Source: a virus (lineage: Duplodnaviria > Heunggongvirae > Uroviricota > Caudoviricetes). From it: a stretch of 5,673 bases of DNA. Location: IMG/VR virus record IMGVR_UViG_2617270987_000001; one strand, 5' to 3'. Of this stretch, positions 1 to 5,673 are shown one piece after another. The notes beneath the pieces were generated by a model. That model made no database searches, had not been told where the DNA came from, and saw only the letters and a list, made by a program, of their open reading frames with translations. The position numbers and the translations under genes are program-made. Each line of letters opens with the position of its first letter. Positions within the stretch are counted from its first letter, which is position 1.

Positions 1-1160
1 TCACGCTCTACAGATGGTTCGACTTCCACTTTGCATTCGGTTTTTTCGTTGTCCGGAATTGCCGTTTCCACTGCATCAGTTTCTGGTACTGGCGACGAGA
101 GAGTATCAGTTGCGCTCTGATTTCTTCCTTCATCTTCAAACACGCCCTTTGTAGTCAGGTATTCAGTAATGTATTTGTTCAGTGCCACAGGGTCTTTGTG
201 AATGTCGATCGGACGTTCACGGACAAGGCCAAAAATAGTCTGGCGGTCGTAGCGAAGGGCATCAGGCTGTTTGCGCATTGATGCCGAGATACGCTTCCAG
301 TCTTCGCGGTCGTTGTCGATAACTTCATTTTTTGCCCAGCGATGGATGCTGCCGTCAATGTTTCCGGCATCCACATCACCAGGCCAGAGAGCGTAGGCCA
401 GTTCGTCATCCAGTGTTTTCCATGTCTGCTTGTATTCGCGATGAATGGCAGCAATGACCAGGCTGATTTTTCCTGTTGAATTTTCAGTGTGTTGTTGATT
501 GACTCTGGCGCGGGCGAGATCAACAACAGACGTGTATTTTCCGGTTTCCTTGCGTTCACCTTCGCGACGTTTTTTCCAGATGCGCATCTCTGCCTGAATT
601 TCGGGCCATTTGGCACCAGGCTTACATTTATGCTTAACCCACCCGATGGCATGCAGCTTAAGCTCCGGATACATGGCGTTAACATCTGGCATTTTCATCA
701 ACGCTTCAACGATATGTCCGTCGAATGTTGCCATGTCTTCCTGCAACAATTCCTGTGCGCTAATAACCATATCAACGGTGATGTTTTCACATGTGTCGAA
801 CTTAACCATGACAGCGTTCTGTACTTCAGGGGCCAGCTTGTCAAAAGTGACGTTCATCGGATCGGATTCAGTCTCAATCGGGACAAAGGAAGCAGACTCC
901 TCATCCCAGCGGTTTTCCTGCATATATTCAGCATCCCAGGAATCGAGGGCAGGGCGGGGTATACCGGGTTTATCCTCGCAGACAAGAAATTTATAAGCGC
1001 AGTCCTGAGCAGCCGGATAATGTTCCAGGAATTGCCAGTGAAATTTTGCGCGGGCGCGACGTTCATCACCGGCTTCAATGGCAGTGGCTACAGCGACGGC
1101 ACCTTCTTCCTTTATTGCCTGTTCGTCCGGAATGGCGGCGCAAATAAAGACTTTACTCAT
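1..1160 (-). CDS. Large hypothetical early-operon protein, N-terminal 386 codons only (3' end beyond left edge); RecE-like by position only
   Basis: I translated the minus strand from ATG 1160 by hand: the frame stays open to position 3 with no stop. GAGGT lies 8 nt upstream of the ATG. N-terminus MSKVFICAAIPDEQAIKEEGAVAVATAIEAGDE, acidic. Absent from the supplied track, presumably because it has no in-window stop. No family recognised. Confidence 0.8.
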   Translation of the reverse strand, partial: MSKVFICAAIPDEQAIKEEGAVAVATAIEAGDERRARAKFHWQFLEHYPAAQDCAYKFLVCEDKPGIPRPALDSWDAEYMQENRWDEESASFVPIETESDPMNVTFDKLAPEVQNAVMVKFDTCENITVDMVISAQELLQEDMATFDGHIVEALMKMPDVNAMYPELKLHAIGWVKHKCKPGAKWPEIQAEMRIWKKRREGERKETGKYTSVVDLARARVNQQHTENSTGKISLVIAAIHREYKQTWKTLDDELAYALWPGDVDAGNIDGSIHRWAKNEVIDNDREDWKRISASMRKQPDALRYDRQTIFGLVRERPIDIHKDPVALNKYITEYLTTKGVFEDEGRNQSATDTLSSPVPETDAVETAIPDNEKTECKVEVEPSVER

Positions 1161-1239
1161 TTTGTTTTACCTCATTACAGATTTAAGGGTGAACAAATCC
1201 CTGCCATTGCTGGCATATAAAAATGAAACTGGATATTAA

Positions 1240-1443
1240 TTACGGCGCTGTTTTTAATCCTGCCGGGATTTCGTTATTGTCCATGTGAATAACTTTATCG
1301 TCCGGATAACAGTTGCCGGGAATTTTCTGTTCCGCTGCGGCAGCCATGCATTCTTTCATTGAGTTGTACATGCCGGTGATTGCATCAAGCGACTCACCAG
1401 TATTGAGATGTACAGTCAGAATGAGTACGAATAATGTGTTCAT
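1240..1443 (-). CDS. Small hypothetical protein (67 aa) with N-terminal hydrophobic segment (possible signal peptide or membrane anchor) and two Cys
   Basis: ATG at 1443 preceded by GGAGAG. Its start overlaps the stop of the upstream gene as ATGA (1440-1443), typical translational coupling. N-terminus MNTLFVLILTVHLNTG is hydrophobic. The track starts it at a GTG two codons upstream. Confidence 0.6.
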   Translation of the reverse strand: MNTLFVLILTVHLNTGESLDAITGMYNSMKECMAAAAEQKIPGNCYPDDKVIHMDNNEIPAGLKTAP

Positions 1444-1628
1444 CGCCACTCTCCGAAAATACCGAGTTTAAGAAGGGCAATTCTGGAGAGTATGGAATTG
1501 TCATTCAGCAGGTAGGGTTCATATTTTCTCATATTGATTGCATCCTCGGTGAAATCCCTGTTACTGAGCAGAACACCAATATTAAAGCACCCGTCAGACG
1601 TATTAACGTTTGGTAGTGACGTTTCCAT
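1440..1628 (-). CDS. Small hypothetical protein (62 aa)
   Basis: ATG at 1628 with GAGGA 7 nt upstream; starts 10 nt after the rha stop and overlaps the next start by 4 nt. No family recognised. Confidence 0.55.
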   Translation of the reverse strand: METSLPNVNTSDGCFNIGVLLSNRDFTEDAINMRKYEPYLLNDNSILSRIALLKLGIFGEWR

Positions 1629-1638
1629 TATCGCGTCC

Positions 1639-2196
1639 TCAACAATGAATTTTTAGCAATTGCTCCACAGTCATATTTTTAATTGCGCTCCGGTTTACAA
1701 GAGTCCATCCTTGTTTCTCCAGATAAAACCGGAAGGTATCCAGGGTGCAGACCATTGCGCCGTCAGGAACGGTTTCAGTGAATTTGATATTGCCGTGTTC
1801 GTCGAGACGGATAACCAGGGTGCGTCCGTCCCCGTGAATCATTTTGTCGGGAGACGGGGCGTTATTCTGGCGCAGTTCTGCTTCCATGCGGTCGAACTCA
1901 GCAATGTATGCCTCTTTAAATGCAGCGGCTTTTTTGCCAGTGAAGCCCATCACCAGGAAAACGAAGCCGTTTTTGGTGATTTGGTACATTGGGAGTTTGC
2001 GCCCGGTTGAGTCGGTGTATTCGCTCGACACAAAATTGTGCTCAGTGAATTTTGCTGAACAGTCCAGATTGCGAATTTTATCCAACACTCGTTCGTGGCG
2101 TTTGCCAAAGAACTCGGCGATCGCAACAGACGTAGTGACAGCGCGACCATTTTCGATGGTTACGTCAGGGTGAGAAAGGGTAAGGATAGTAGCCAT
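1639..2196 (-). CDS. rha: Phage regulatory protein Rha (Rha-family N-terminal domain), 185 aa
   Basis: Sequence from MATILTLSHPDVTIENGRAVTTSVAIAEFFGKRHERVLDKIRNL ... GFVFLVMGFTGKKAAAFKEAYIAEFDRME matches the conserved Rha-domain pattern as I recall it. ATG 2196 has GGAGG 8 nt upstream. The track ORF runs a further 99 codons upstream to 2493, but those codons are G/R/P-rich and contain a promoter and hairpin, so I take 2196 as the start. Confidence 0.85.
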   Translation of the reverse strand: MATILTLSHPDVTIENGRAVTTSVAIAEFFGKRHERVLDKIRNLDCSAKFTEHNFVSSEYTDSTGRKLPMYQITKNGFVFLVMGFTGKKAAAFKEAYIAEFDRMEAELRQNNAPSPDKMIHGDGRTLVIRLDEHGNIKFTETVPDGAMVCTLDTFRFYLEKQGWTLVNRSAIKNMTVEQLLKIHC

Positions 2197-2365
2197 GATG
2201 GCAGCCTCCGCGATGAATTTGATTAACTCACCACCGAGGTTTTCCACGACCATAAGGGTGGTGAGACGTACAGGGGTGGAAATACCGGTCATCACGGAAC
2301 CCGGCCAGCCTTGCGGCTGCCCTGCACGCCCCACCATAATGCGAATGTGGCTGTGCTTAACGCAT

Positions 2366-2388
2366 AAAAAAACCGCCTGAGCGCGGTT
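2366..2388 (-). terminator. Candidate intrinsic terminator (short GC stem plus U7) on the minus strand
   Basis: Minus strand reads AACCGC-GCUCAG-GCGGUU followed by a run of seven U (plus 2366-2372 is AAAAAAA). The stem is only about 6 bp including two A-U pairs, so it is weak. Confidence 0.35.
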
Positions 2389-2448
2389 ATGCGCCGTGAA
2401 TGATTTCGGGTTTCCACGCCCGGCACCCGTTTTATGAGGTGCAGGTGC

Positions 2449-2477
2449 ACTATAATTCCACCCGTTCTGGTTTTCAA
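2449..2477 (-). promoter_or_regulatory. Sigma70-like promoter on minus strand: TTGAAA, 17-nt spacer, TATAGT
   Basis: Read base by base on the minus strand: -35 TTGAAA (2477-2472), spacer ACCAGAACGGGTGGAAT (17 nt), -10 TATAGT (2454-2449). Predicted start near 2442, about 77 nt upstream of the end of the U-run. Confidence 0.45.
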
Positions 2478-2675
2478 TAGCTACATTCAACATTTTCTCT
2501 ACCTTTCATCACCTAAGTGAACTTTGTGATGCGGTGCCTGGTGCCTCCAGGTGACATTAACCAGTTAACAATTAACGCCGGATGATTCACCCATAACACT
2601 TGTGTTTTTAACTGTTCTGCGTGCGCTGAGCCGCATTCACCGCATCACGAAATTCACTTTTTACTTCATAGACCG

Positions 2676-2684
2676 TGATATGAT
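2676..2684 (+). promoter_or_regulatory. Candidate extended -10 promoter (TGaTATGAT) for the DUF1883-like gene
   Basis: TG at 2676-2677, one base, then TATGAT at 2679-2684, about 30 nt upstream of ATG 2714. No convincing -35. Confidence 0.3.
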
Positions 2685-2713
2685 TTAGCTTTCCACAGTA
2701 AAAAGGAGTGTTT

Positions 2714-2977
2714 ATGTCCCATATACATAGTCGTGAACACATGAATGATGGTGACCTTGTCAGGGTTCAATGTTCACACCAGATTAATGTTTTATTAATG
2801 GATGATTCAAATTACCAGGCTTTCAAGCGGGGCGGGCGTTTTACCTATTACGGCGGTTTCTATGAACGATTCCCTGCCAATATTACCGTGCCCCACTCGG
2901 GTTACTGGAATGTTGTATTAGCACTCCCTCCCGGTCATCGAGCCAATATCAGATACTCCATTAACGTTATCAGATAG
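2714..2977 (+). CDS. DUF1883-like small protein (87 aa), function unknown
   Basis: ATG 2714 with AGGAG at 2704-2708. The sequence GDLVRVQCSHQINVLLMDDSNYQAFKRGGRFTYYGGFYERFPANITVPHSGYWNVVLALPPGHRANIRYSINVI fits the conserved DUF1883 pattern as I remember it (V.V..... NV.LMD..N...Y..G....Y.GG.......VP..G.W.VV). Opposite strand to its neighbours; GC about 44 percent by hand count. Confidence 0.75.
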   Translation: MSHIHSREHMNDGDLVRVQCSHQINVLLMDDSNYQAFKRGGRFTYYGGFYERFPANITVPHSGYWNVVLALPPGHRANIRYSINVIR

Positions 2978-3139
2978 CAGAATTTGGCTTGTCGCCTGAG
3001 TTAATGCACTTGCAAGGGCGGTAATGATTTTTTGTTGAGTACCGTCCTTTATAAAAGTCATATTCATTATGTGTTTCTGGCTGACGGTATCGTATGACCA
3101 GAGCAGCTTATTATTCCCGTCTGTGCATTGAACTATCAT
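2918..3139 (-). CDS. Small early protein, 73 aa, KilR-like by size and position (unverified)
   Basis: ATG 3139 with GGAGG 4 nt upstream (short spacer); the track extends it to a TTG at 3214. Protein MIVQCTDGNNKLLWSYDTVSQKH... Length matches my recollection of Rac KilR (73 aa) and the gene sits between the small genes and rha; similarity not verified. Confidence 0.55.
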   Translation of the reverse strand: MIVQCTDGNNKLLWSYDTVSQKHIMNMTFIKDGTQQKIITALASALTQATSQILLSDNVNGVSDIGSMTGREC

Positions 3140-3181
3140 TTTTCCTCCGGTTAGACCCCATATATCTATAGCAGTATGAGT

Positions 3182-3261
3182 TATGGCGGGGTTGTCACTT
3201 AAGCGTATGGTCAACCTGACAACCCGGTGTCCTCAACGGGGGAAGGAATAACCCCGCCATA
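3182..3261. repeat. Nested inverted repeats: 12-bp perfect IR TATGGCGGGGTT / AACCCCGCCATA enclosing inner IR GGTTGTCA / TGACAACC
   Basis: Indexed directly: 3182-3193 TATGGCGGGGTT and 3250-3261 AACCCCGCCATA are exact reverse complements; 3190-3197 GGTTGTCA and 3217-3224 TGACAACC likewise. Confidence 0.5.
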
Positions 3262-3499
3262 CTTACCGCCGCGCCATTTCGCGGAGTGCCACAACCGGAA
3301 GCGCACGGTCGAAGAAATTAACGACAAGCCTCATAGGTGAAGGCCTTCGCCGTACGCTTTCGTGTTATGCCCTGACTTTTCAGGGAAATATCCTTTCAGT
3401 AAACTGTCAGTGCCGGATTCTTATCCGTGTCCGGCGCACGACCACACGTAGCCCCGTATTGGTCTCCATTTCTAACCCAGAACCTAAATGGAGGATAAA

Positions 3500-3784
3500 A
3501 TGGCAAAATTTACAGTCAGGATCGAACTTCGCGATTCCAGTTCCGCTGATTACGATAAGCTTCATGAACGAATGGAAGCAAAGGGATTCTCCAGAACGAT
3601 TACAACCTCTTTAGGGAACACCTACCGTCTTCCTAATGCCGAATATATATATTCAAGCAAGAATGAAGACAAAGAATCTGTTGCTGACCTTGCTGAATCA
3701 GTGGCCTCAAAAGTTAAGAAAAATCCCGGTGTTCTTGTTACCGAATCTAATGGGCGCTATGTAAAAAACTTAGATGATGCTTAA
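3500..3784 (+). CDS. Hypothetical small protein (94 aa), unrecognised family, plus-strand insert at the position sieB occupies in Rac
   Basis: ATG 3500 with GGAGG at 3490-3494 and a 5-nt spacer; the track's upstream ATG 3488 has no RBS. Protein MAKFTVRIELRDSSSADYDKLHERMEAKGFSRTITTSLGNTYRLPNAEYIY... Stop overlaps the stop of the convergent 48-aa gene by 4 nt. Visibly AT-rich. Confidence 0.8.
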   Translation: MAKFTVRIELRDSSSADYDKLHERMEAKGFSRTITTSLGNTYRLPNAEYIYSSKNEDKESVADLAESVASKVKKNPGVLVTESNGRYVKNLDDA

Positions 3785-3927
3785 CCTTCATCATCACGAC
3801 CTGACTCAATAGCGTACAATGCCAGCCAGATGCGGGCTTCAGTGCCTGCATTTGGTTCCAGTTGCTGGAGGCGTTTTGCATCCTCCAGAAGCAGAGCGAT
3901 AACGTGTTTTAATTCTGTTTCGTTCAT
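3781..3927 (-). CDS. Tiny early protein (48 aa), YdaG/YdaF-class by size and position
   Basis: Translated by hand: MNETELKHVIALLLEDAKRLQQLEPNAGTEARIWLALYAIESGRDDEG. ATG 3927 with AGGTG 7 nt upstream; starts 1 nt after the stop of the 51-aa gene. Below the track's length cutoff. Confidence 0.6.
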   Translation of the reverse strand: MNETELKHVIALLLEDAKRLQQLEPNAGTEARIWLALYAIESGRDDEG

Positions 3928-3928
3928 T

Positions 3929-4084
3929 TTATTCACCTGAATGTCTTACCAACCAACGACGCGCGCCAGATTCGGTTTTAAACGTTTTGCTTTTGGTATA
4001 CGTCATCGCGGTGAACGTTCCGTCCTGGTTGGGAAACACGCCGTATACCAGAGATTCGTTGTTGCCAAGATCGATAGTATCCAT
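3929..4084 (-). CDS. Tiny early protein (51 aa), first gene of the leftward operon; YdaF/YdaG-class by size and position
   Basis: ATG 4084 with GAGG 5 nt upstream; protein MDTIDLGNNESLVYGVFPNQDGTFTAMTYTKSKTFKTESGARRWLVRHSGE. An in-frame upstream ATG at 4162 (GAGG 9 nt upstream) would give 77 aa; I cannot tell which is used. Confidence 0.6.
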   Translation of the reverse strand: MDTIDLGNNESLVYGVFPNQDGTFTAMTYTKSKTFKTESGARRWLVRHSGE

Positions 4085-4263
4085 GTTGACCTCATTTCCC
4101 CTTAACGCCGGGGTAGCGGAACAAAAACCTGCTGCATAGTTAAAGTTGAACCCTGCCGTCATGTTCTTACGCCTCGGGCTGGCTACTTAACCCCTGACCA
4201 CTGCCTGGTAACTCAAAGTATTGCCCTGCATTCTGTGGGGCGGGGTGGGTTGGTATGAAAAGA

Positions 4264-4304
4264 AGGATACCCATAGGTATTTAAAAAGTAAATACCCATG
4301 GGTA
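4264..4304 (-). promoter_or_regulatory. OL/PL-like region: two palindromic operators overlapping a leftward promoter
   Basis: TACCCATAGGTA (4268-4279) and perfect palindrome TACCCATGGGTA (4293-4304), centres 25 bp apart. Minus-strand promoter candidate -35 TTTACT (4292-4287), 17-nt spacer, -10 TATCCT (4269-4264). Confidence 0.5.
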
Positions 4305-4346
4305 ACTTTTTGCGGTGTCTTAACTGGTGACTAGTTGTTTGGTGAG

Positions 4347-4766
4347 CTATGATGCGTTTTGTGCTTTCTTTTTACGGATTTCTTCGTAGATCATATTGTA
4401 ATACTGTTTTTTCTCTTCAAGAGTTTTTAATAATTTATCCGCTTCACTTTCTGGCAGTTCGTCTAAGAGATCTAAAAAAATACGTTGTCGTGGCGTTAGA
4501 ACCCTTGTTTCATAACTGGAGGCTGTGTTCGTTGATGATGAAACGATACCATCCATCCATCCCCGGGGTAACCCAAAGGACTCTTCGATAATCTCCACCA
4601 TATCATCAGCGATCCGTTTTTTTCCCTTTTTCCCCTCTGGGTACAACATTCTTGATACATAAGAAGGCTCGCGCCCGATCTTTCTGGCCACGTTAACCGC
4701 TTTACCATCGCATTTCTCATCACGAATTTTGATGAGTTGCTGTCGTCTAAATTCATATTTGTCCAT
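4347..4766 (-). CDS. Prophage repressor, cI/RacR-like HTH protein (139 aa), no peptidase domain evident
   Basis: HTH-like segment AVNVARKIGREPSYVSRML near the N-terminus. Located between the two operator clusters and divergent from the Cro-like gene. No SD upstream of ATG 4766. Confidence 0.8.
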   Translation of the reverse strand: MDKYEFRRQQLIKIRDEKCDGKAVNVARKIGREPSYVSRMLYPEGKKGKKRIADDMVEIIEESFGLPRGWMDGIVSSSTNTASSYETRVLTPRQRIFLDLLDELPESEADKLLKTLEEKKQYYNMIYEEIRKKKAQNAS

Positions 4767-4841
4767 AGGTAAATAATAGATGCGATTACTGCAAGGTAAA
4801 CAACCTGTGGGTATTGACTTTTGTTTACCTGTAGGTATTCT
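4760..4841. promoter_or_regulatory. OR-like region: three operator-like sites with divergent PR-like and PRM-like promoters
   Basis: TACCTGTAGGTA (4826-4837), AACCTGTGGGTA (4802-4813, centres 24 bp apart) and a weaker TGTCCATAGGTA (4760-4771) over the repressor start. Plus-strand promoter TTGACT (4814-4819), 16 nt, TATTCT (4836-4841). Minus-strand -10 TATTAT (4778-4773) lies 6 nt before the repressor ATG. Confidence 0.5.
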
Positions 4842-4866
4842 TTGCTGTGTTTACTAAGGAGTAGCT

Positions 4867-5148
4867 ATGGAAGAATTAAGAATATTTCTCAATTCTCTTT
4901 CGTCAGATGAACAGCGTATGTTTGCATGCGAGTGTGGTACCAGCATCGGTTATCTAAGAAAGGCATTGAGTAAAGGTCAAGTGTTAGGGGCATCGTTATG
5001 TGTCCTTATTGAGCGAGCCAGTAATGGTGAAGTTACACGTCAGCAACTAAGGCCTTTTGATTGGATGAATATTTGGCCCGAGCTGGAAGATACCAAAACG
5101 TTAACACAACCACTTTCTAGGAGCTTGATTCATGAAAATCAAGCATGA
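4867..5148 (+). CDS. ydaS: Cro-like HTH regulator of the YdaS family (93 aa)
   Basis: AAGGAG at 4856-4861, 5-nt spacer, ATG 4867. First rightward gene, divergent from the repressor. The FACECGTSIGYLRKALSKGQ ... LRPFDW pattern resembles YdaS/Cro-like proteins. Overlaps the next gene by 17 nt. Confidence 0.8.
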   Translation: MEELRIFLNSLSSDEQRMFACECGTSIGYLRKALSKGQVLGASLCVLIERASNGEVTRQQLRPFDWMNIWPELEDTKTLTQPLSRSLIHENQA

Positions 5149-5557
5149 ACACATCCGCATGGCGATGAATGCCTGGGCGCGTCCTGATGGCGAAAAAGTT
5201 CCAGCAGCTGGAATAACCCAGGCTTATTTTGAGTTGGGTATGACGTTTCCTGAACTGTATGACGACAGCCATCCGGAAGCCCTGGCTCGCAATACCCAGA
5301 AAATTTTCCGCTGGGTAGAGAAAGACACCTCTGATGCAGTTGAAAAAATTCAGGCGTTGTTACCAGCGATCGAAAAGGCAATGCCACCTTTGCTGGTGGC
5401 CAGAATGCGCAGCCACAGTTCAGCTTATTTTCGGGAGCTGGTGGAGACGCGGGAGCGACTGGTGAGAGACGCTGATGATTTTGTCGCAGTGGCAATCGCC
5501 GGTTTCAATCAGATGAACCGTGGTGGCCCGGCAGGAAATGCTGTGGCAGTACATTGA
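5132..5557 (+). CDS. ydaT: YdaT-family protein (141 aa)
   Basis: AGGAG at 5119-5123, ATG 5132. Begins MKIKHEHI and ends VH, as I recall for Rac YdaT; immediately follows and overlaps the ydaS-like gene. Confidence 0.8.
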   Translation: MKIKHEHIRMAMNAWARPDGEKVPAAGITQAYFELGMTFPELYDDSHPEALARNTQKIFRWVEKDTSDAVEKIQALLPAIEKAMPPLLVARMRSHSSAYFRELVETRERLVRDADDFVAVAIAGFNQMNRGGPAGNAVAVH

Positions 5558-5628
5558 CTGACAATAGCCATATCGAATCGCTTCCGGCAACTCGTGAGTA
5601 AAAAGATTCGGTATCAGAAGAGGTGAGT

Positions 5629-5673
5629 ATGGCTAACGCCTGGCTCAGATTATGGCATGACATGCCAAATGAC
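5629..5673 (+). CDS. 5' end (15 codons) of the next rightward gene, YdaU-like by position
   Basis: GAGG at 5620-5623, 5-nt spacer, ATG 5629; MANAWLRLWHDMPND runs in frame to the window edge. Too short to classify. Confidence 0.45.
   Translation, partial: MANAWLRLWHDMPND

What the first reader, a model, noticed from the sequence alone, without database searches (positions are those of the whole stretch)
1..5673. Two plus-strand genes embedded in the leftward early operon, a layout typical of lysogen-expressed accessory genes
The minus-strand genes from the 51-aa gene to the large left ORF read as one leftward operon driven from the OL/PL side. The only plus-strand genes left of the repressor are the DUF1883-like gene and the 94-aa gene; each has its own RBS and ends in a convergent overlap with a leftward gene (60 bp and 4 bp). 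Counter-oriented, AT-richer inserts here recall sieB and rexAB, which are expressed in the lysogen and shut off when PL fires.
Basis: partly seen in the sequence, partly recalled or inferred. Interest (0 to 1): 0.6.

Follow-up and report, generated by a model that had tools for sequence, protein, structure and literature searches.

The report
Backward-facing cargo gene pairs in prophage
Two small genes that point against the flow of a prophage's early operon are real, rare, swappable cargo; each is locked tail-to-tail with a small partner gene, and most relatives carry their own promoter, so they are probably read while the virus is dormant, though what they do is unknown.

Summary
The sequence facts hold. 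A DUF1883 gene (2714-2977, +) and a 94-aa gene (3500-3784, +) lie left of the repressor. Each has a Shine-Dalgarno site, and they overlap leftward ORFs by 60 bp and 4 bp.

Both sit in mosaic modules (2661-3185 and 3441-3924). These occur in 8 and 5 of 5426 complete E. coli genomes; parts of the window match 4867. The second slot holds other rightward genes in relatives, and sieB in Rac.

- **Overlapped genes are cargo too.** The leftward ORFs belong to the modules. In IMG/VR, 78 of 80 DUF1883 loci have the same small convergent partner. The 94-aa gene has a GhoS/Cas2-like fold and is a remote homologue of e14 YmfI. Its partner matches the YmfJ N-terminus.
- **Own promoter.** An extended -10 motif precedes 62% of distinct upstream sequences in each family, against about 2% of controls. 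The window's 94-aa gene lacks it.
- **Not one operon.** An IsrK/C4/Rha module has its own strong promoter and terminator.

Lysogen expression is inferred from K-12 data on ymfI-ymfJ and sieB-ydaF. Function is unknown; no PADLOC defence model matched. I rate this a new variant of the moron/excludon theme, of moderate interest.

The parts
2661..3185 (.). Cargo module 1, a variable mosaic segment. It occupies the place of the roughly 80 bp that hold the DicF sRNA in phage Tritos and in Qin.
   Evidence: blastn block structure against relatives. DicF is annotated at L006 3242-3294, between the flanking blocks. The module is present in only 8 of 5426 E. coli genomes. GC is 41.5%.
2676..2684 (+). 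Extended -10 promoter element (TG at 2676-2677, TATGAT at 2679-2684) for the DUF1883 gene.
   Evidence: TGnTAnnnT columns are invariant in the alignment of DUF1883 upstream regions from E. coli, Yersinia, Klebsiella and Serratia. The motif is present in 24 of 39 distinct upstream sequences against 2.1% of control windows. PWM score is 8.2, above the top-0.1% cutoff of 7.4.
2714..2977 (+). DUF1883 gene (87 aa): a small cytoplasmic beta-sandwich protein, counter-oriented cargo gene A1.
   Evidence: Pfam PF08980, 86.7 bits. PDB 2B1Y by sequence, E 4e-6. AF2 pLDDT 91.4, all-beta with one helix, and only weak fold matches to binding modules.
2918..3139 (-). Partner gene B1 (73 aa from ATG 3139, GGAGG Shine-Dalgarno). 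It is convergent with the DUF1883 gene and shares a 60-bp 3' overlap with it. PGAP does not annotate it in E24377A (L001) or STEC005 (L004).
   Evidence: phrog_21096. It is 33-42% identical to the 59-62-aa convergent partners in Yersinia, Klebsiella and Serratia. A partner is present in 78 of 80 IMG/VR DUF1883 loci. Median dN/dS is 0.245.
3186..3440 (.). Conserved non-coding backbone block. Its leftward RNA is structured, and it holds a rightward promoter-like site (TTTTCA-17-TAAACT, 3377-3405).
   Evidence: About 90% identical in all relatives, including Tritos, and alignable with Qin. The minus-strand fold has z = -3.36. PWM score is 11.0, the second-best plus-strand site after PR. Its 5' part is homologous to the sequence upstream of Rac sieB and other slot-2 cargo.
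3441..3924 (.). Cargo module 2, a variable mosaic segment of the ymfI/ymfJ type.
   Evidence: blastn blocks. The full module is in only 5 of 5426 E. coli genomes. GC is 43.6%.
3500..3784 (+). 94-aa gene A2: GhoS/Cas2-like ferredoxin fold and a remote homologue of e14 YmfI.
   Evidence: Pfam GhoS scores 19.2 bits, below the cutoff of 21. NCBIfam YmfI_phage gives E 1.3e-13. hhalign against K-12 YmfI gives probability 90.7%. AF2 pLDDT is 93.2. The best PDB fold match is GhoS 2LLZ, TM 0.68, followed by Cas2-like RNases.
3781..3927 (-). Partner gene B2 (48 aa from ATG 3927; 51 aa if it starts at GTG 3936). It is homologous to the YmfJ N-terminal domain, is convergent with A2 with a 4-bp TTAA overlap, and sits one base after the stop codon of the upstream DUF1391 gene.
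   Evidence: Translations of the window, Yersinia, Kosakonia and e14 YmfJ sequences. A convergent partner of this type is found in 24 of 80 IMG/VR loci, nearly always with a 4-bp overlap. Median dN/dS is 0.161.
3929..4084 (-). DUF1391 (YdfA/YdaF-like) gene, the first backbone gene of the PL operon.
   Evidence: Pfam PF07151, 95.7 bits. PGAP homologues are 51 aa.
4264..4304 (-). OL/PL region: two TACC-N4-GGTA operators (4268-4279 and 4293-4304) forming a 37-nt palindrome, overlapped by the PL-like promoter TTTACT-17-TATCCT.
1654..2517 (-). An autonomous inserted unit: promoter 2477..2449, IsrK sRNA 2442..2366 with its terminator, C4-type RNA 2341..2254, and a Rha/AnrP-like antirepressor 2196..1639.
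   Evidence: Rfam hits. Promoter and terminator scans. Pfam Phage_pRha. Present in only some relatives. The Gifsy-1 homologue has its own PisrK promoter (PMC4825925).
4347..4766 (-). Repressor gene (phrog_5736; weak similarity to the DicA C-terminus).

Best explanation
The window is the early-left and immunity region of a Qin/Rac-like (DicB-type, PPompW-like) lambdoid prophage of E. coli. Two independent accessory modules have been recombined into its PL operon.

**Architecture.** Each module has the same layout. A cargo gene A points against the operon: DUF1883 in one module, and a GhoS/Cas2-fold YmfI-like protein in the other. A is locked 3'-end to 3'-end with a small gene B that points with the operon, and no terminator lies between them.

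**Proposed mechanism (inferred).**
- While the repressor keeps PL shut, A is transcribed from its own sigma-70 promoter. For DUF1883 this is an extended -10 element inside the module. For the 94-aa gene it is probably the promoter-like site in the conserved block about 100 nt upstream, or read-through from the DUF1883 promoter.
- The A transcript runs antisense into B and the PL operon.
- On induction, PL transcription runs through B (sense) and A (antisense). This makes B and silences A by collision and by double-stranded-RNA processing.
- In short, this is an excludon-type lysogeny/lysis toggle, as at sieB-ydaF in Rac and ymfI-ymfJ in e14.

**Shown:** the anatomy, the mosaic rarity, the family-wide counter-orientation, the conserved partners, the conserved promoter motif and the folds.

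**Inferred:** the timing of expression and the mutual exclusion.

**Guessed:** that A gives the lysogen an exclusion, regulatory or RNA-cleaving function. DUF1883 looks like a binding module. The 94-aa protein looks like a small RNA-binding or RNA-cleaving protein.
For: **Mosaic blocks and rarity.**, against matches to parts of the window in 4867 of 5426 genomes.

**Different cargo in the same slot.** Other plus-strand genes occupy slot 2 in relatives. Rac has sieB there, with a 4-bp overlap.

**Counter-orientation in unrelated prophage regions.**
- The 94-aa family sits between the lysis and terminase genes in Yersinia, Kosakonia, Citrobacter and E. coli.
- DUF1883 sits next to the repressor in Yersinia, among tail genes in Klebsiella, and between Q and the holin gene in Serratia.

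**IMG/VR survey.**
- DUF1883: 78 of 80 loci have the convergent partner. Both flanks are on the opposite strand in 55, and in none are both flanks on the same strand.
- GhoS-like: both flanks are opposite in 32 of 80 and both are the same in 1 of 80. A YmfJ-like partner is present in 24, and another convergent ORF in 53 of the remaining 56.

**Partners are real genes.** dN/dS is 0.245 and 0.161.

**Promoter.**
- TGnTAnnnT lies 30-34 nt before the ATG in 62% of distinct upstream sequences, against about 2% of controls.
- A shared promoter/leader stands in front of unrelated cargo, including K-12 ymfI.
- No plus-strand intrinsic terminator is predicted after either gene.

**Folds.**

**Expression data for homologues in K-12.**
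- ymfI-ymfJ and sieB-ydaF are in the core convergent excludome of MG1655 (PMC12288877).
- The YmfT (e14 induction) iModulon lists intE, xisE, ymfH and ymfJ but not ymfI (PMC12132413).
- In an SOS time course ymfJ rises by 4-4.8 log2 and ymfI by only 1-2 (PMC11002266).
Against: - No transcript data exist for this sequence.
- The window's 94-aa gene lacks the family's extended -10 (GTATTGG instead of TATGCT).
- Its candidate promoter lies in a block that is conserved even in Qin and Tritos, which have no cargo. That block also folds as a leftward RNA, so its conservation does not prove promoter function.
- ymfI is not shut off on SOS induction in K-12. It rises modestly, although I did not check whether those data are strand-specific.
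- Excludon calls are nearly automatic when two coding sequences physically overlap.
- A and B families are shuffled. A GhoS-like gene is paired with a B1-type partner in L054, and a YmfJ-like domain faces a different 92-aa gene in L002. This argues against a specific A-B protein pair.
- No known defence or toxin family matched either plus-strand protein or either partner.
Confidence: 0.55

Rival explanations
1. Each A/B pair is a toxin-antitoxin-like or abortive-infection module. For module 2 it would be a type V-like system: the GhoS-fold protein is an RNase that cleaves the mRNA of its convergent partner (or of the PL operon, which carries dicB) in the lysogen, and the partner or downstream product acts once the RNase is lost.
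For: - GhoS is the best structural match, followed by Cas2-type RNases.
- PGAP names the E24377A orthologue a GhoS antitoxin.
- The family has invariant polar residues R7, E9, H22, E48 and Y49. By their positions in the model's secondary structure these lie on or near the beta-strands. Their spatial clustering was not measured.
- The partner co-occurs tightly in close relatives.
- The module lies upstream of the toxic dicB gene.
Against: - There is no GhoT-like membrane peptide. The partner is a small acidic hydrophilic protein.
- The Pfam GhoS score is below the cutoff.
- Partners are interchangeable between A families.
- In other prophages the module sits in late regions, far from dicB.
- PADLOC and NCBIfam toxin/antitoxin models do not match.
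Confidence: 0.15
2. They are ordinary phage genes of unknown function. Their orientation has no regulatory meaning, and they are expressed during lytic growth like their neighbours, for example as anti-defence or host-takeover genes that happen to be inserted backwards.
For: - ymfI RNA rises rather than falls on SOS induction.
- In Yersinia the neighbouring gene is an Acb2/Tad1-like anti-defence protein, so these regions collect counter-defence cargo.
- No defence-family hits were found.
Against: - The orientation is almost invariant across independent insertion sites: 0 of 80 and 1 of 80 loci have both flanks co-oriented.
- A conserved sigma-70 extended -10 lies at a fixed distance from the start codon.
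- ymfI is absent from the e14 induction iModulon although it sits inside the operon.
Confidence: 0.2
3. The plus-strand transcripts matter mainly as antisense RNAs, and the proteins are secondary. Rightward transcription from the slot promoters damps leaky PL transcription of toxic early genes (dicB, the Rha antirepressor), stabilising lysogeny.
For: - The rightward promoter-like site in the backbone block is 100% conserved even in Qin and Tritos, which have no cargo gene there.
- No terminators follow the plus-strand genes.
- The modules lie between PL and dicB.
Against: - The A proteins are well conserved. The GhoS-like family has 15 invariant columns, and DUF1883 homologues are 51-95% identical across Enterobacterales.
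- The same modules occur in late operons.
Confidence: 0.1

Closest known systems
sieB-ydaF in the Rac prophage of E. coli K-12 (and lambda/P22 sieB)
   Same: It occupies the same slot: left of the repressor, next to the DUF1391 gene, counter-oriented to the PL operon, with a 4-bp convergent stop overlap. Its upstream sequence is homologous to the window's backbone joint. It is listed as a convergent excludon in MG1655. sieB is the textbook lysogen-expressed exclusion gene (my own knowledge).
   Different: Neither window protein resembles SieB; there is no PF14163 hit. SieB is, to my knowledge, a membrane protein. These proteins are small, and their models are compact globular folds; no transmembrane prediction was run.
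ymfI-ymfJ in the e14 prophage of E. coli K-12
   Same: - The 94-aa protein is a remote YmfI homologue.
- Its partner is homologous to the YmfJ N-terminus.
- Both have the convergent-overlap layout left of the repressor.
- ymfI carries the shared promoter/leader element.
   Different: - There is no BLASTP-level similarity to K-12 YmfI.
- The NCBIfam score is far below the family cutoff.
- The partner here is only the 48-aa N-domain, against 102 aa for YmfJ.
- The overlap is 4 bp here and 63 bp in e14.
- The functions of YmfI and YmfJ are themselves unknown.
Morons of lambdoid phages (extra transcription units with their own promoter, present in some relatives only)
   Same: Presence/absence polymorphism, deviant base composition and an own promoter.
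   Different: No own terminator was found. Each module carries a second, co-oriented small gene fused tail-to-tail to the cargo gene. The orientation is consistently antisense.
Excludons (convergent genes with overlapping transcripts and mutually exclusive expression)
   Same: Convergent genes whose coding regions overlap, so their transcripts must overlap. The K-12 homologue pair is in the published excludome.
   Different: Mutual exclusion has not been shown for these pairs.
GhoS/GhoT type V toxin-antitoxin system
   Same: GhoS is the best fold match (TM 0.68). Pfam GhoS is the only Pfam hit.
   Different: The score is below the Pfam cutoff. There is no GhoT-like gene. The partner is convergent rather than co-directional and does not look like a membrane peptide. 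The context is a prophage.
MrpA/MrpB of Clostridioides difficile (a small partner plus a DUF1883 protein that alters cell division; MrpA binds MinD)
   Same: A DUF1883 protein that works together with a small uncharacterised partner protein (bioRxiv 10.1101/2025.08.20.671228). In this window the module sits beside dicB and replaces DicF, both of which inhibit cell division.
   Different: - That system is from a Firmicute and is not described there as phage-borne.
- I did not compare the MrpA/MrpB sequences with these proteins.
- The same enterobacterial module also sits in tail and lysis regions, so its position beside dicB may be a coincidence.

Membership tests
Pfam DUF1883 (PF08980) | Score above the Pfam gathering threshold | tested here: met
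   86.7 bits against 26, covering 3-87 of 87 aa. Sequence match to PDB 2B1Y.
GhoS (Pfam PF11080) / type V antitoxin | Score above the Pfam gathering threshold | tested here: not met
   19.2 bits against a cutoff of 21. Some relatives (P0007, P0015, P0016) do carry a precomputed PF11080 hit.
GhoS (Pfam PF11080) / type V antitoxin | GhoS-like ferredoxin/Cas2 fold | tested here: met
   AF2 pLDDT 93.2. The top PDB hit is 2LLZ GhoS, TM 0.68, rmsd 2.5 Å over 82 columns.
GhoS (Pfam PF11080) / type V antitoxin | Adjacent co-directional GhoT-like small membrane toxin gene | tested here: not met
   There is no co-directional downstream gene. The convergent partner is an acidic hydrophilic YmfJ-N-like protein.
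GhoS (Pfam PF11080) / type V antitoxin | Sequence-specific cleavage of the toxin mRNA | not testable with these tools
   This needs an in vitro RNase assay.
YmfI family phage protein (NCBIfam NF051477) | Score above the curated cutoff (140 bits) | tested here: not met
   51.2 bits, E 1.3e-13. K-12 YmfI scores 161.5. Remote homology is supported by hhalign at 90.7%.
YmfI family phage protein (NCBIfam NF051477) | Convergent, overlapping YmfJ-like neighbour | tested here: met
Moron (lambdoid accessory transcription unit) | Present in some close relatives and absent from others, at a fixed joint | tested here: met
Moron (lambdoid accessory transcription unit) | Own promoter | tested here: inconclusive
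   DUF1883 has a conserved extended -10. In this window the 94-aa gene lacks the family motif, and only a backbone candidate at 3377-3405 was found. No transcript data are available.
Moron (lambdoid accessory transcription unit) | Own terminator | tested here: not met
   No plus-strand terminator-like site lies between 2977 and 4267.
Moron (lambdoid accessory transcription unit) | Expression from the repressed prophage | not testable with these tools
   Only indirect K-12 data for ymfI and sieB exist.
Excludon | Convergent genes with overlapping transcripts | tested here: inconclusive
   The coding regions overlap by 60 bp and 4 bp, so any full-length mRNAs must overlap. Overlapping transcripts have been observed only for the K-12 homologue pair.
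Excludon | Mutually exclusive expression of the two genes | not tested
   This needs RNA-seq of lysogenic and induced cultures.
SieB (PF14163) | Sequence membership | tested here: not met
   Neither protein hits SieB. Rac SieB scores 109 bits.
Known anti-phage defence systems (PADLOC-DB 2.0) | Match to any defence protein model | tested here: not met
   No family matched either plus-strand protein or either partner at E <= 0.1.

The most novel reading that the evidence does not exclude
The tail-to-tail A/B modules are an undescribed, widespread class of prophage 'dormancy-only' units across Enterobacterales. They would include DUF1883 with its roughly 60-aa partner, the GhoS-fold YmfI-like gene with YmfJ-like or other partners, and sieB-ydaF. 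A portable promoter/leader (GCCTG-N13-14-CAGGC, GGTGGTAT.CT, GTTCTCACACAaCCAG) would drive an interchangeable cargo gene in the lysogen. The phage operon running through the partner gene would act as the built-in off-switch at induction. The cargo would be new exclusion or RNA-targeting effectors, for example a Cas2/GhoS-like RNase acting on phage early or late transcripts.
Probability: 0.15. Interest if true: 0.75.

Novelty: new variant of a known kind. Interest (0 to 1): 0.5.

Why it matters
Counter-oriented accessory genes in prophage operons, with sieB as the model, are a known source of lysogen phenotypes. This analysis adds three points:

- The slot is a hot spot whose cargo is exchanged at a conserved joint.
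- Two cargo families travel almost everywhere as tail-to-tail pairs with a small operon-sense gene.
- Unrelated cargo genes share one promoter/leader.

If the toggle model is right, it gives a simple sequence rule for finding lysogen-expressed genes in prophages. The rule is: a gene antisense to the operon, an extended -10 about 30 nt before the start codon, and a 3' overlap with a small sense gene.

It also nominates two uncharacterised proteins, and the K-12 y-genes ymfI and ymfJ, for exclusion, defence or RNA-regulation assays. If it is wrong, these remain ordinary orphan phage genes.

Tried and rejected
- **Tool promoter scan.** The built-in scan found no plus-strand promoter before either gene at its 9-of-12 threshold. 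A PWM scan and comparative alignment were needed.
- **Direct comparison with K-12 YmfI.** BLASTP of the 94-aa protein against K-12 YmfI gave nothing. Homology appeared only with profiles.
- **PDB sequence search.** The 94-aa protein gave no hit.
- **PADLOC.** No defence family matched either plus-strand protein or either partner.
- **Partner B1 searches.** tblastn of the 73-aa partner against GenBank phages found no match. The word-indexed homologue search found only 3 hits, so no alignment-based structure of the partner could be made.
- **DicF.** Rfam finds no DicF in the window. DicF is replaced by module 1; it was not overlooked.
- **Gene-calling artefact, rejected.** Both plus-strand genes and both partners are conserved across genera and under purifying selection.
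- **Strictly specific A-B protein pairs, weakened.** Partners are shuffled between A families.
- **Division-related role for DUF1883.** Suggested by its position beside dicB and by the C. difficile MrpAB precedent. I kept it only as a lead, because the module also sits in tail and lysis regions.
- **Not pursued.** K-12 transcription-start-site tables and the source organism of the window.

Full report
**1. What is in the window**

The window reads as the early-left and immunity region of a lambdoid prophage of the Qin/Rac (DicB) type. ORF listing with Pfam and PHROG scans gives the following genes.

On the minus strand:
- the N-terminal 386 codons of a RecE-like exonuclease (3-1160, running off the left end)
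- DUF1482 (1240-1443)
- DicB (1440-1628)
- a Rha-family antirepressor (1639-2196)
- a 73-aa ORF (2918-3139)
- a 48/51-aa ORF (3781-3927, or to 3936)
- DUF1391/YdfA (3929-4084)
- the repressor (4347-4766)

On the plus strand:
- DUF1883 (2714-2977)
- a 94-aa gene (3500-3784)
- a Cro/YdaS-like gene (4867-5148)
- YdaT (5132-5557)

Five TACC-N4-GGTA operators cluster at 4268 and 4293 (OL) and at 4787, 4802 and 4826 (OR). There are 8 matches in the window against 1.24 expected by chance. A PWM scan puts PR at 4814-4841, a PRM-like site at 4800..4773 and a PL-like site at 4292..4264.

**2. Checking the observation**

- Both plus-strand genes are real. DUF1883 scores 86.7 bits in Pfam. The 94-aa protein has homologues in Kosakonia, Enterobacter, Citrobacter and Yersinia.
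- Each has a strong Shine-Dalgarno site five nt before its ATG, and the overlaps are exactly 60 bp and 4 bp.
- The two modules are AT-richer (41.5% and 43.6% GC) than the adjoining blocks (47-55%).
- 'One leftward operon' does not hold. Rfam finds an IsrK sRNA (2442..2366, 67.7 bits) and a C4-type antisense RNA (2341..2254, 81.9 bits) directly upstream of the Rha gene.
- That unit is preceded by the best promoter-like site in the window (TTGAAA-17-TATAGT) and contains an intrinsic terminator.
- In Gifsy-1 the homologous PisrK promoter drives isrK-orf45-anrP (PMC4825925).
- The unit (1654-2517) is itself an insertion, present in only some relatives.

**3. Mosaic structure and rarity**

No complete E. 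coli genome contains the whole window. The best covers 82% at 97% identity, although parts of the window match 4867 of 5426 genomes. blastn against seven relatives divides the window into backbone blocks and variable modules.

| Coordinates | Segment |
|---|---|
| 1-1653 | backbone |
| 1654-2517 | IsrK/C4/Rha unit (variable) |
| 2518-2660 | backbone |
| 2661-3185 | DUF1883 module (variable) |
| 3186-3440 | backbone |
| 3441-3924 | 94-aa module (variable) |
| 3925-4254 | backbone |

- The DUF1883 module is in 8 of 5426 genomes. The full 94-aa module is in 5.
- Module 1 sits where phage Tritos and Qin carry the DicF sRNA. Rfam finds no DicF in the window.
- In relatives, slot 2 holds other unrelated rightward genes of 66, 69, 91, 92 and 136 aa.
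- In Rac, slot 2 holds sieB, which overlaps ydaF by 4 bp.

**4. The overlapped leftward genes belong to the cargo**

*The 94-aa gene and its partner*
- Its homologues in Yersinia, Kosakonia, Citrobacter and another E. coli prophage lie between the lysis genes and the terminase.
- There too they are antisense to everything around them. They are also convergent, with 4-14 bp of overlap, with a 47-52-aa gene homologous to the window's '51-aa' gene.
- That small protein is the N-terminal domain of e14 YmfJ.
- The 94-aa protein is a remote homologue of e14 YmfI: NCBIfam E 1.3e-13, and hhalign probability 90.7%.
- In e14, ymfI is likewise the one rightward gene left of the repressor, and it overlaps ymfJ by 63 bp.

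*The DUF1883 gene and its partner*
- Its homologues lie next to the repressor in Yersinia, among tail genes in Klebsiella, and between Q and the holin gene in Serratia.
- In each case they are antisense and overlap a 59-62-aa gene by 21-24 bp.
- That gene is 33-42% identical to the window's 73-aa ORF.

*Surveys of IMG/VR*
- 78 of 80 DUF1883 loci have this partner. One of the two exceptions is cut off by the end of its contig. Both flanks are on the opposite strand in 55 loci, and in none are both on the same strand.
- Of 80 loci with a relative of the 94-aa gene, both flanks are opposite in 32 and both are the same in 1. 24 have the YmfJ-like partner. 53 of the other 56 have some other convergent ORF at the stop codon.
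- Many of these loci are redundant: there are 52 and 19 distinct partner sequences.
- Both partners evolve as proteins, with median dN/dS of 0.245 and 0.161.
- Pairing is not strictly specific. One GhoS-like gene faces a B1-type partner, and a YmfJ-like domain faces a different 92-aa gene in strain B19695.

**5. Promoters**

- Alignments of upstream regions show an invariant TGnTAnnnT (extended -10) about 30 nt before the start codon.
- The motif occurs in 24 of 39 (DUF1883) and 37 of 60 (GhoS-like) distinct upstream sequences, against 2.1-2.3% of control windows. Spacing is tight, at 30-34 nt.
- The window's DUF1883 gene has it (TG at 2676-2677, TATGAT at 2679-2684).
- A longer shared element precedes unrelated cargo genes, including K-12 ymfI. 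It reads GCCTG-N13-14-CAGGC, GGTGGTAT.CT, GTTCTCACACAaCCAG, AAGGA.
- The window's 94-aa gene has lost the -10 (GTATTGG). Its best candidate is TTTTCA-17-TAAACT at 3377-3405 in the backbone block, with a PWM score of 11.0, second only to PR on the plus strand.
- That block is homologous at its 5' end to the sequence upstream of Rac sieB and other slot-2 cargo.
- However, the block is also conserved in Qin and Tritos, which lack cargo, and it folds as a leftward RNA with z = -3.36. Promoter function there remains unproven.
- No plus-strand terminator is predicted after either gene. Read-through from the DUF1883 promoter into the 94-aa gene is therefore possible.

**6. The proteins**

- The 94-aa protein models confidently (pLDDT 93.2) as a beta-alpha-beta-beta-alpha-beta ferredoxin-like fold.
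- Its best PDB match is GhoS (2LLZ, TM 0.68), followed by Cas2-type RNases.
- It falls just below the Pfam GhoS cutoff (19.2 against 21 bits) and has no GhoT-like neighbour. It is GhoS-like in fold but is not a type V system.
- DUF1883 models as a small beta-sandwich (pLDDT 91.4). It has only weak similarity to binding modules such as GOLD, PliG and collagen- or carbohydrate-binding domains.
- PADLOC finds nothing for either protein or either partner.
- The only functional precedent for a DUF1883 protein is C. difficile MrpB. With a small partner, MrpA, it perturbs cell division through MinD. This is a lead, not a test.

**7. How it most likely works**

The anatomy is that of an excludon wired into a phage operon: an own promoter, antisense orientation, no terminator, and a 3' overlap with an operon-sense gene. 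A would be read while the operon is repressed. B would be read, and A opposed, when PL (or a late promoter in other phages) fires. Indirect support comes from the K-12 homologues:

- ymfI-ymfJ and sieB-ydaF are both in the core convergent excludome of 58 MG1655 transcriptomes (PMC12288877).
- The e14 induction iModulon contains intE, xisE, ymfH and ymfJ but not ymfI, which lies between them (PMC12132413).
- After DNA damage ymfJ rises by 4-4.8 log2 and ymfI by 1-2 (PMC11002266).

The last point also shows that ymfI is not simply shut off. None of this was measured on the present sequence.

**8. Verdict**

- The 'accessory, sieB-like cargo' interpretation is supported by comparative evidence, and the lysogen timing remains an inference.
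- The conserved tail-to-tail pairing and the shared promoter/leader appear not to have been described. Only five papers in the library mention DUF1883, and none treats it in a phage context. I found no functional study of ymfI or ymfJ.
- This is a new variant of the known moron/excludon theme, with unknown function and moderate interest.

Noticed in passing
window 1639-2493 (-): An IsrK sRNA (2442..2366), a C4-type antisense RNA (2341..2254) and a weak a1/b1 target hit (2455..2403) lie inside what PGAP annotates in relatives as a 284-aa 'Rha family' protein. The long ORF probably over-extends the Rha gene across two RNA genes; the likely start is ATG 2196. The layout matches the Gifsy-1 isrK-orf45-anrP locus and the P1 immI region (c4-icd-ant).
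   Followed up: partly
window 2661-3185, compared with L006 3242-3294 and L010 5383-5435: The DUF1883 module exactly replaces the short segment that carries the DicF sRNA in phage Tritos and in Qin. This prophage therefore keeps dicB but has lost DicF.
   Followed up: partly
upstream of plus-strand cargo genes: L009 5425-5497, L013 3690-3766, L018, L020 and L024 near 4930-5000: A roughly 70-nt promoter/leader is shared by unrelated cargo genes in several genera. It has an inverted repeat GCCTG-N13-14-CAGGC over the -35 region, GGTGGTAT.CT, the leader GTTCTCACACAaCCAG, and AAGGA. More distant loci instead show two direct repeats, TTCCACAGTCAA, bracketing the -10 (for example L084). These could be operator or RNA-control sites, but what binds them is unknown.
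   Followed up: partly
window 3186-3440; Qin K-12 L010 5040-5215: A conserved non-coding block between the dicF position and ydfC folds strongly as a leftward RNA (z = -3.36). It also carries a rightward promoter-like site that is 100% conserved even in Qin and Tritos, where it would produce an RNA antisense to ydfC.
   Followed up: partly
window 4268-4304: The two OL operators form a 37-nt perfect-stem palindrome with T-rich runs on both sides. It could also act as the terminator of the repressor gene, and possibly in both directions.
   Followed up: no
L011 5256-5737 (E. coli 08-00022): A RelE/ParE toxin gene and a small upstream gene lie between PL and the repressor gene, which is the position of rexAB in lambda. 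This is another accessory slot in this prophage family.
   Followed up: no
L015 5495-5731 (Yersinia prophage): An Acb2/Tad1-hairpin family gene (anti-CBASS/anti-Thoeris sponge family) lies immediately beside the YmfJ-like partner gene, in the lysis-terminase accessory region.
   Followed up: no
L002 4800-5201 (-), L003 3945-4265 (-), L007 3801-4166 (-): A family of leftward genes starts with MEFKDLP and has variable C-termini. In B19695 the C-terminus is a YmfJ-N-like domain. These genes are the convergent partners of several different plus-strand cargo genes. A related 'MKFSELP' family partners 16 of the distant GhoS-like loci.
   Followed up: partly
L013 2913-2990 (E. coli A34): PGAP annotates a 'tRNA-OTHER' fragment between the Rha module and the DUF1883 gene in a kil-type relative. 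No tRNA is found in the window itself.
   Followed up: no
window 2523-2645 (-): There is a sub-threshold Rfam match to STnc100 (31.9 bits against 47). In relatives PGAP places a 'DicB, incomplete' pseudogene over the same stretch. This is probably the original dicB leader, displaced by the Rha insertion.
   Followed up: no
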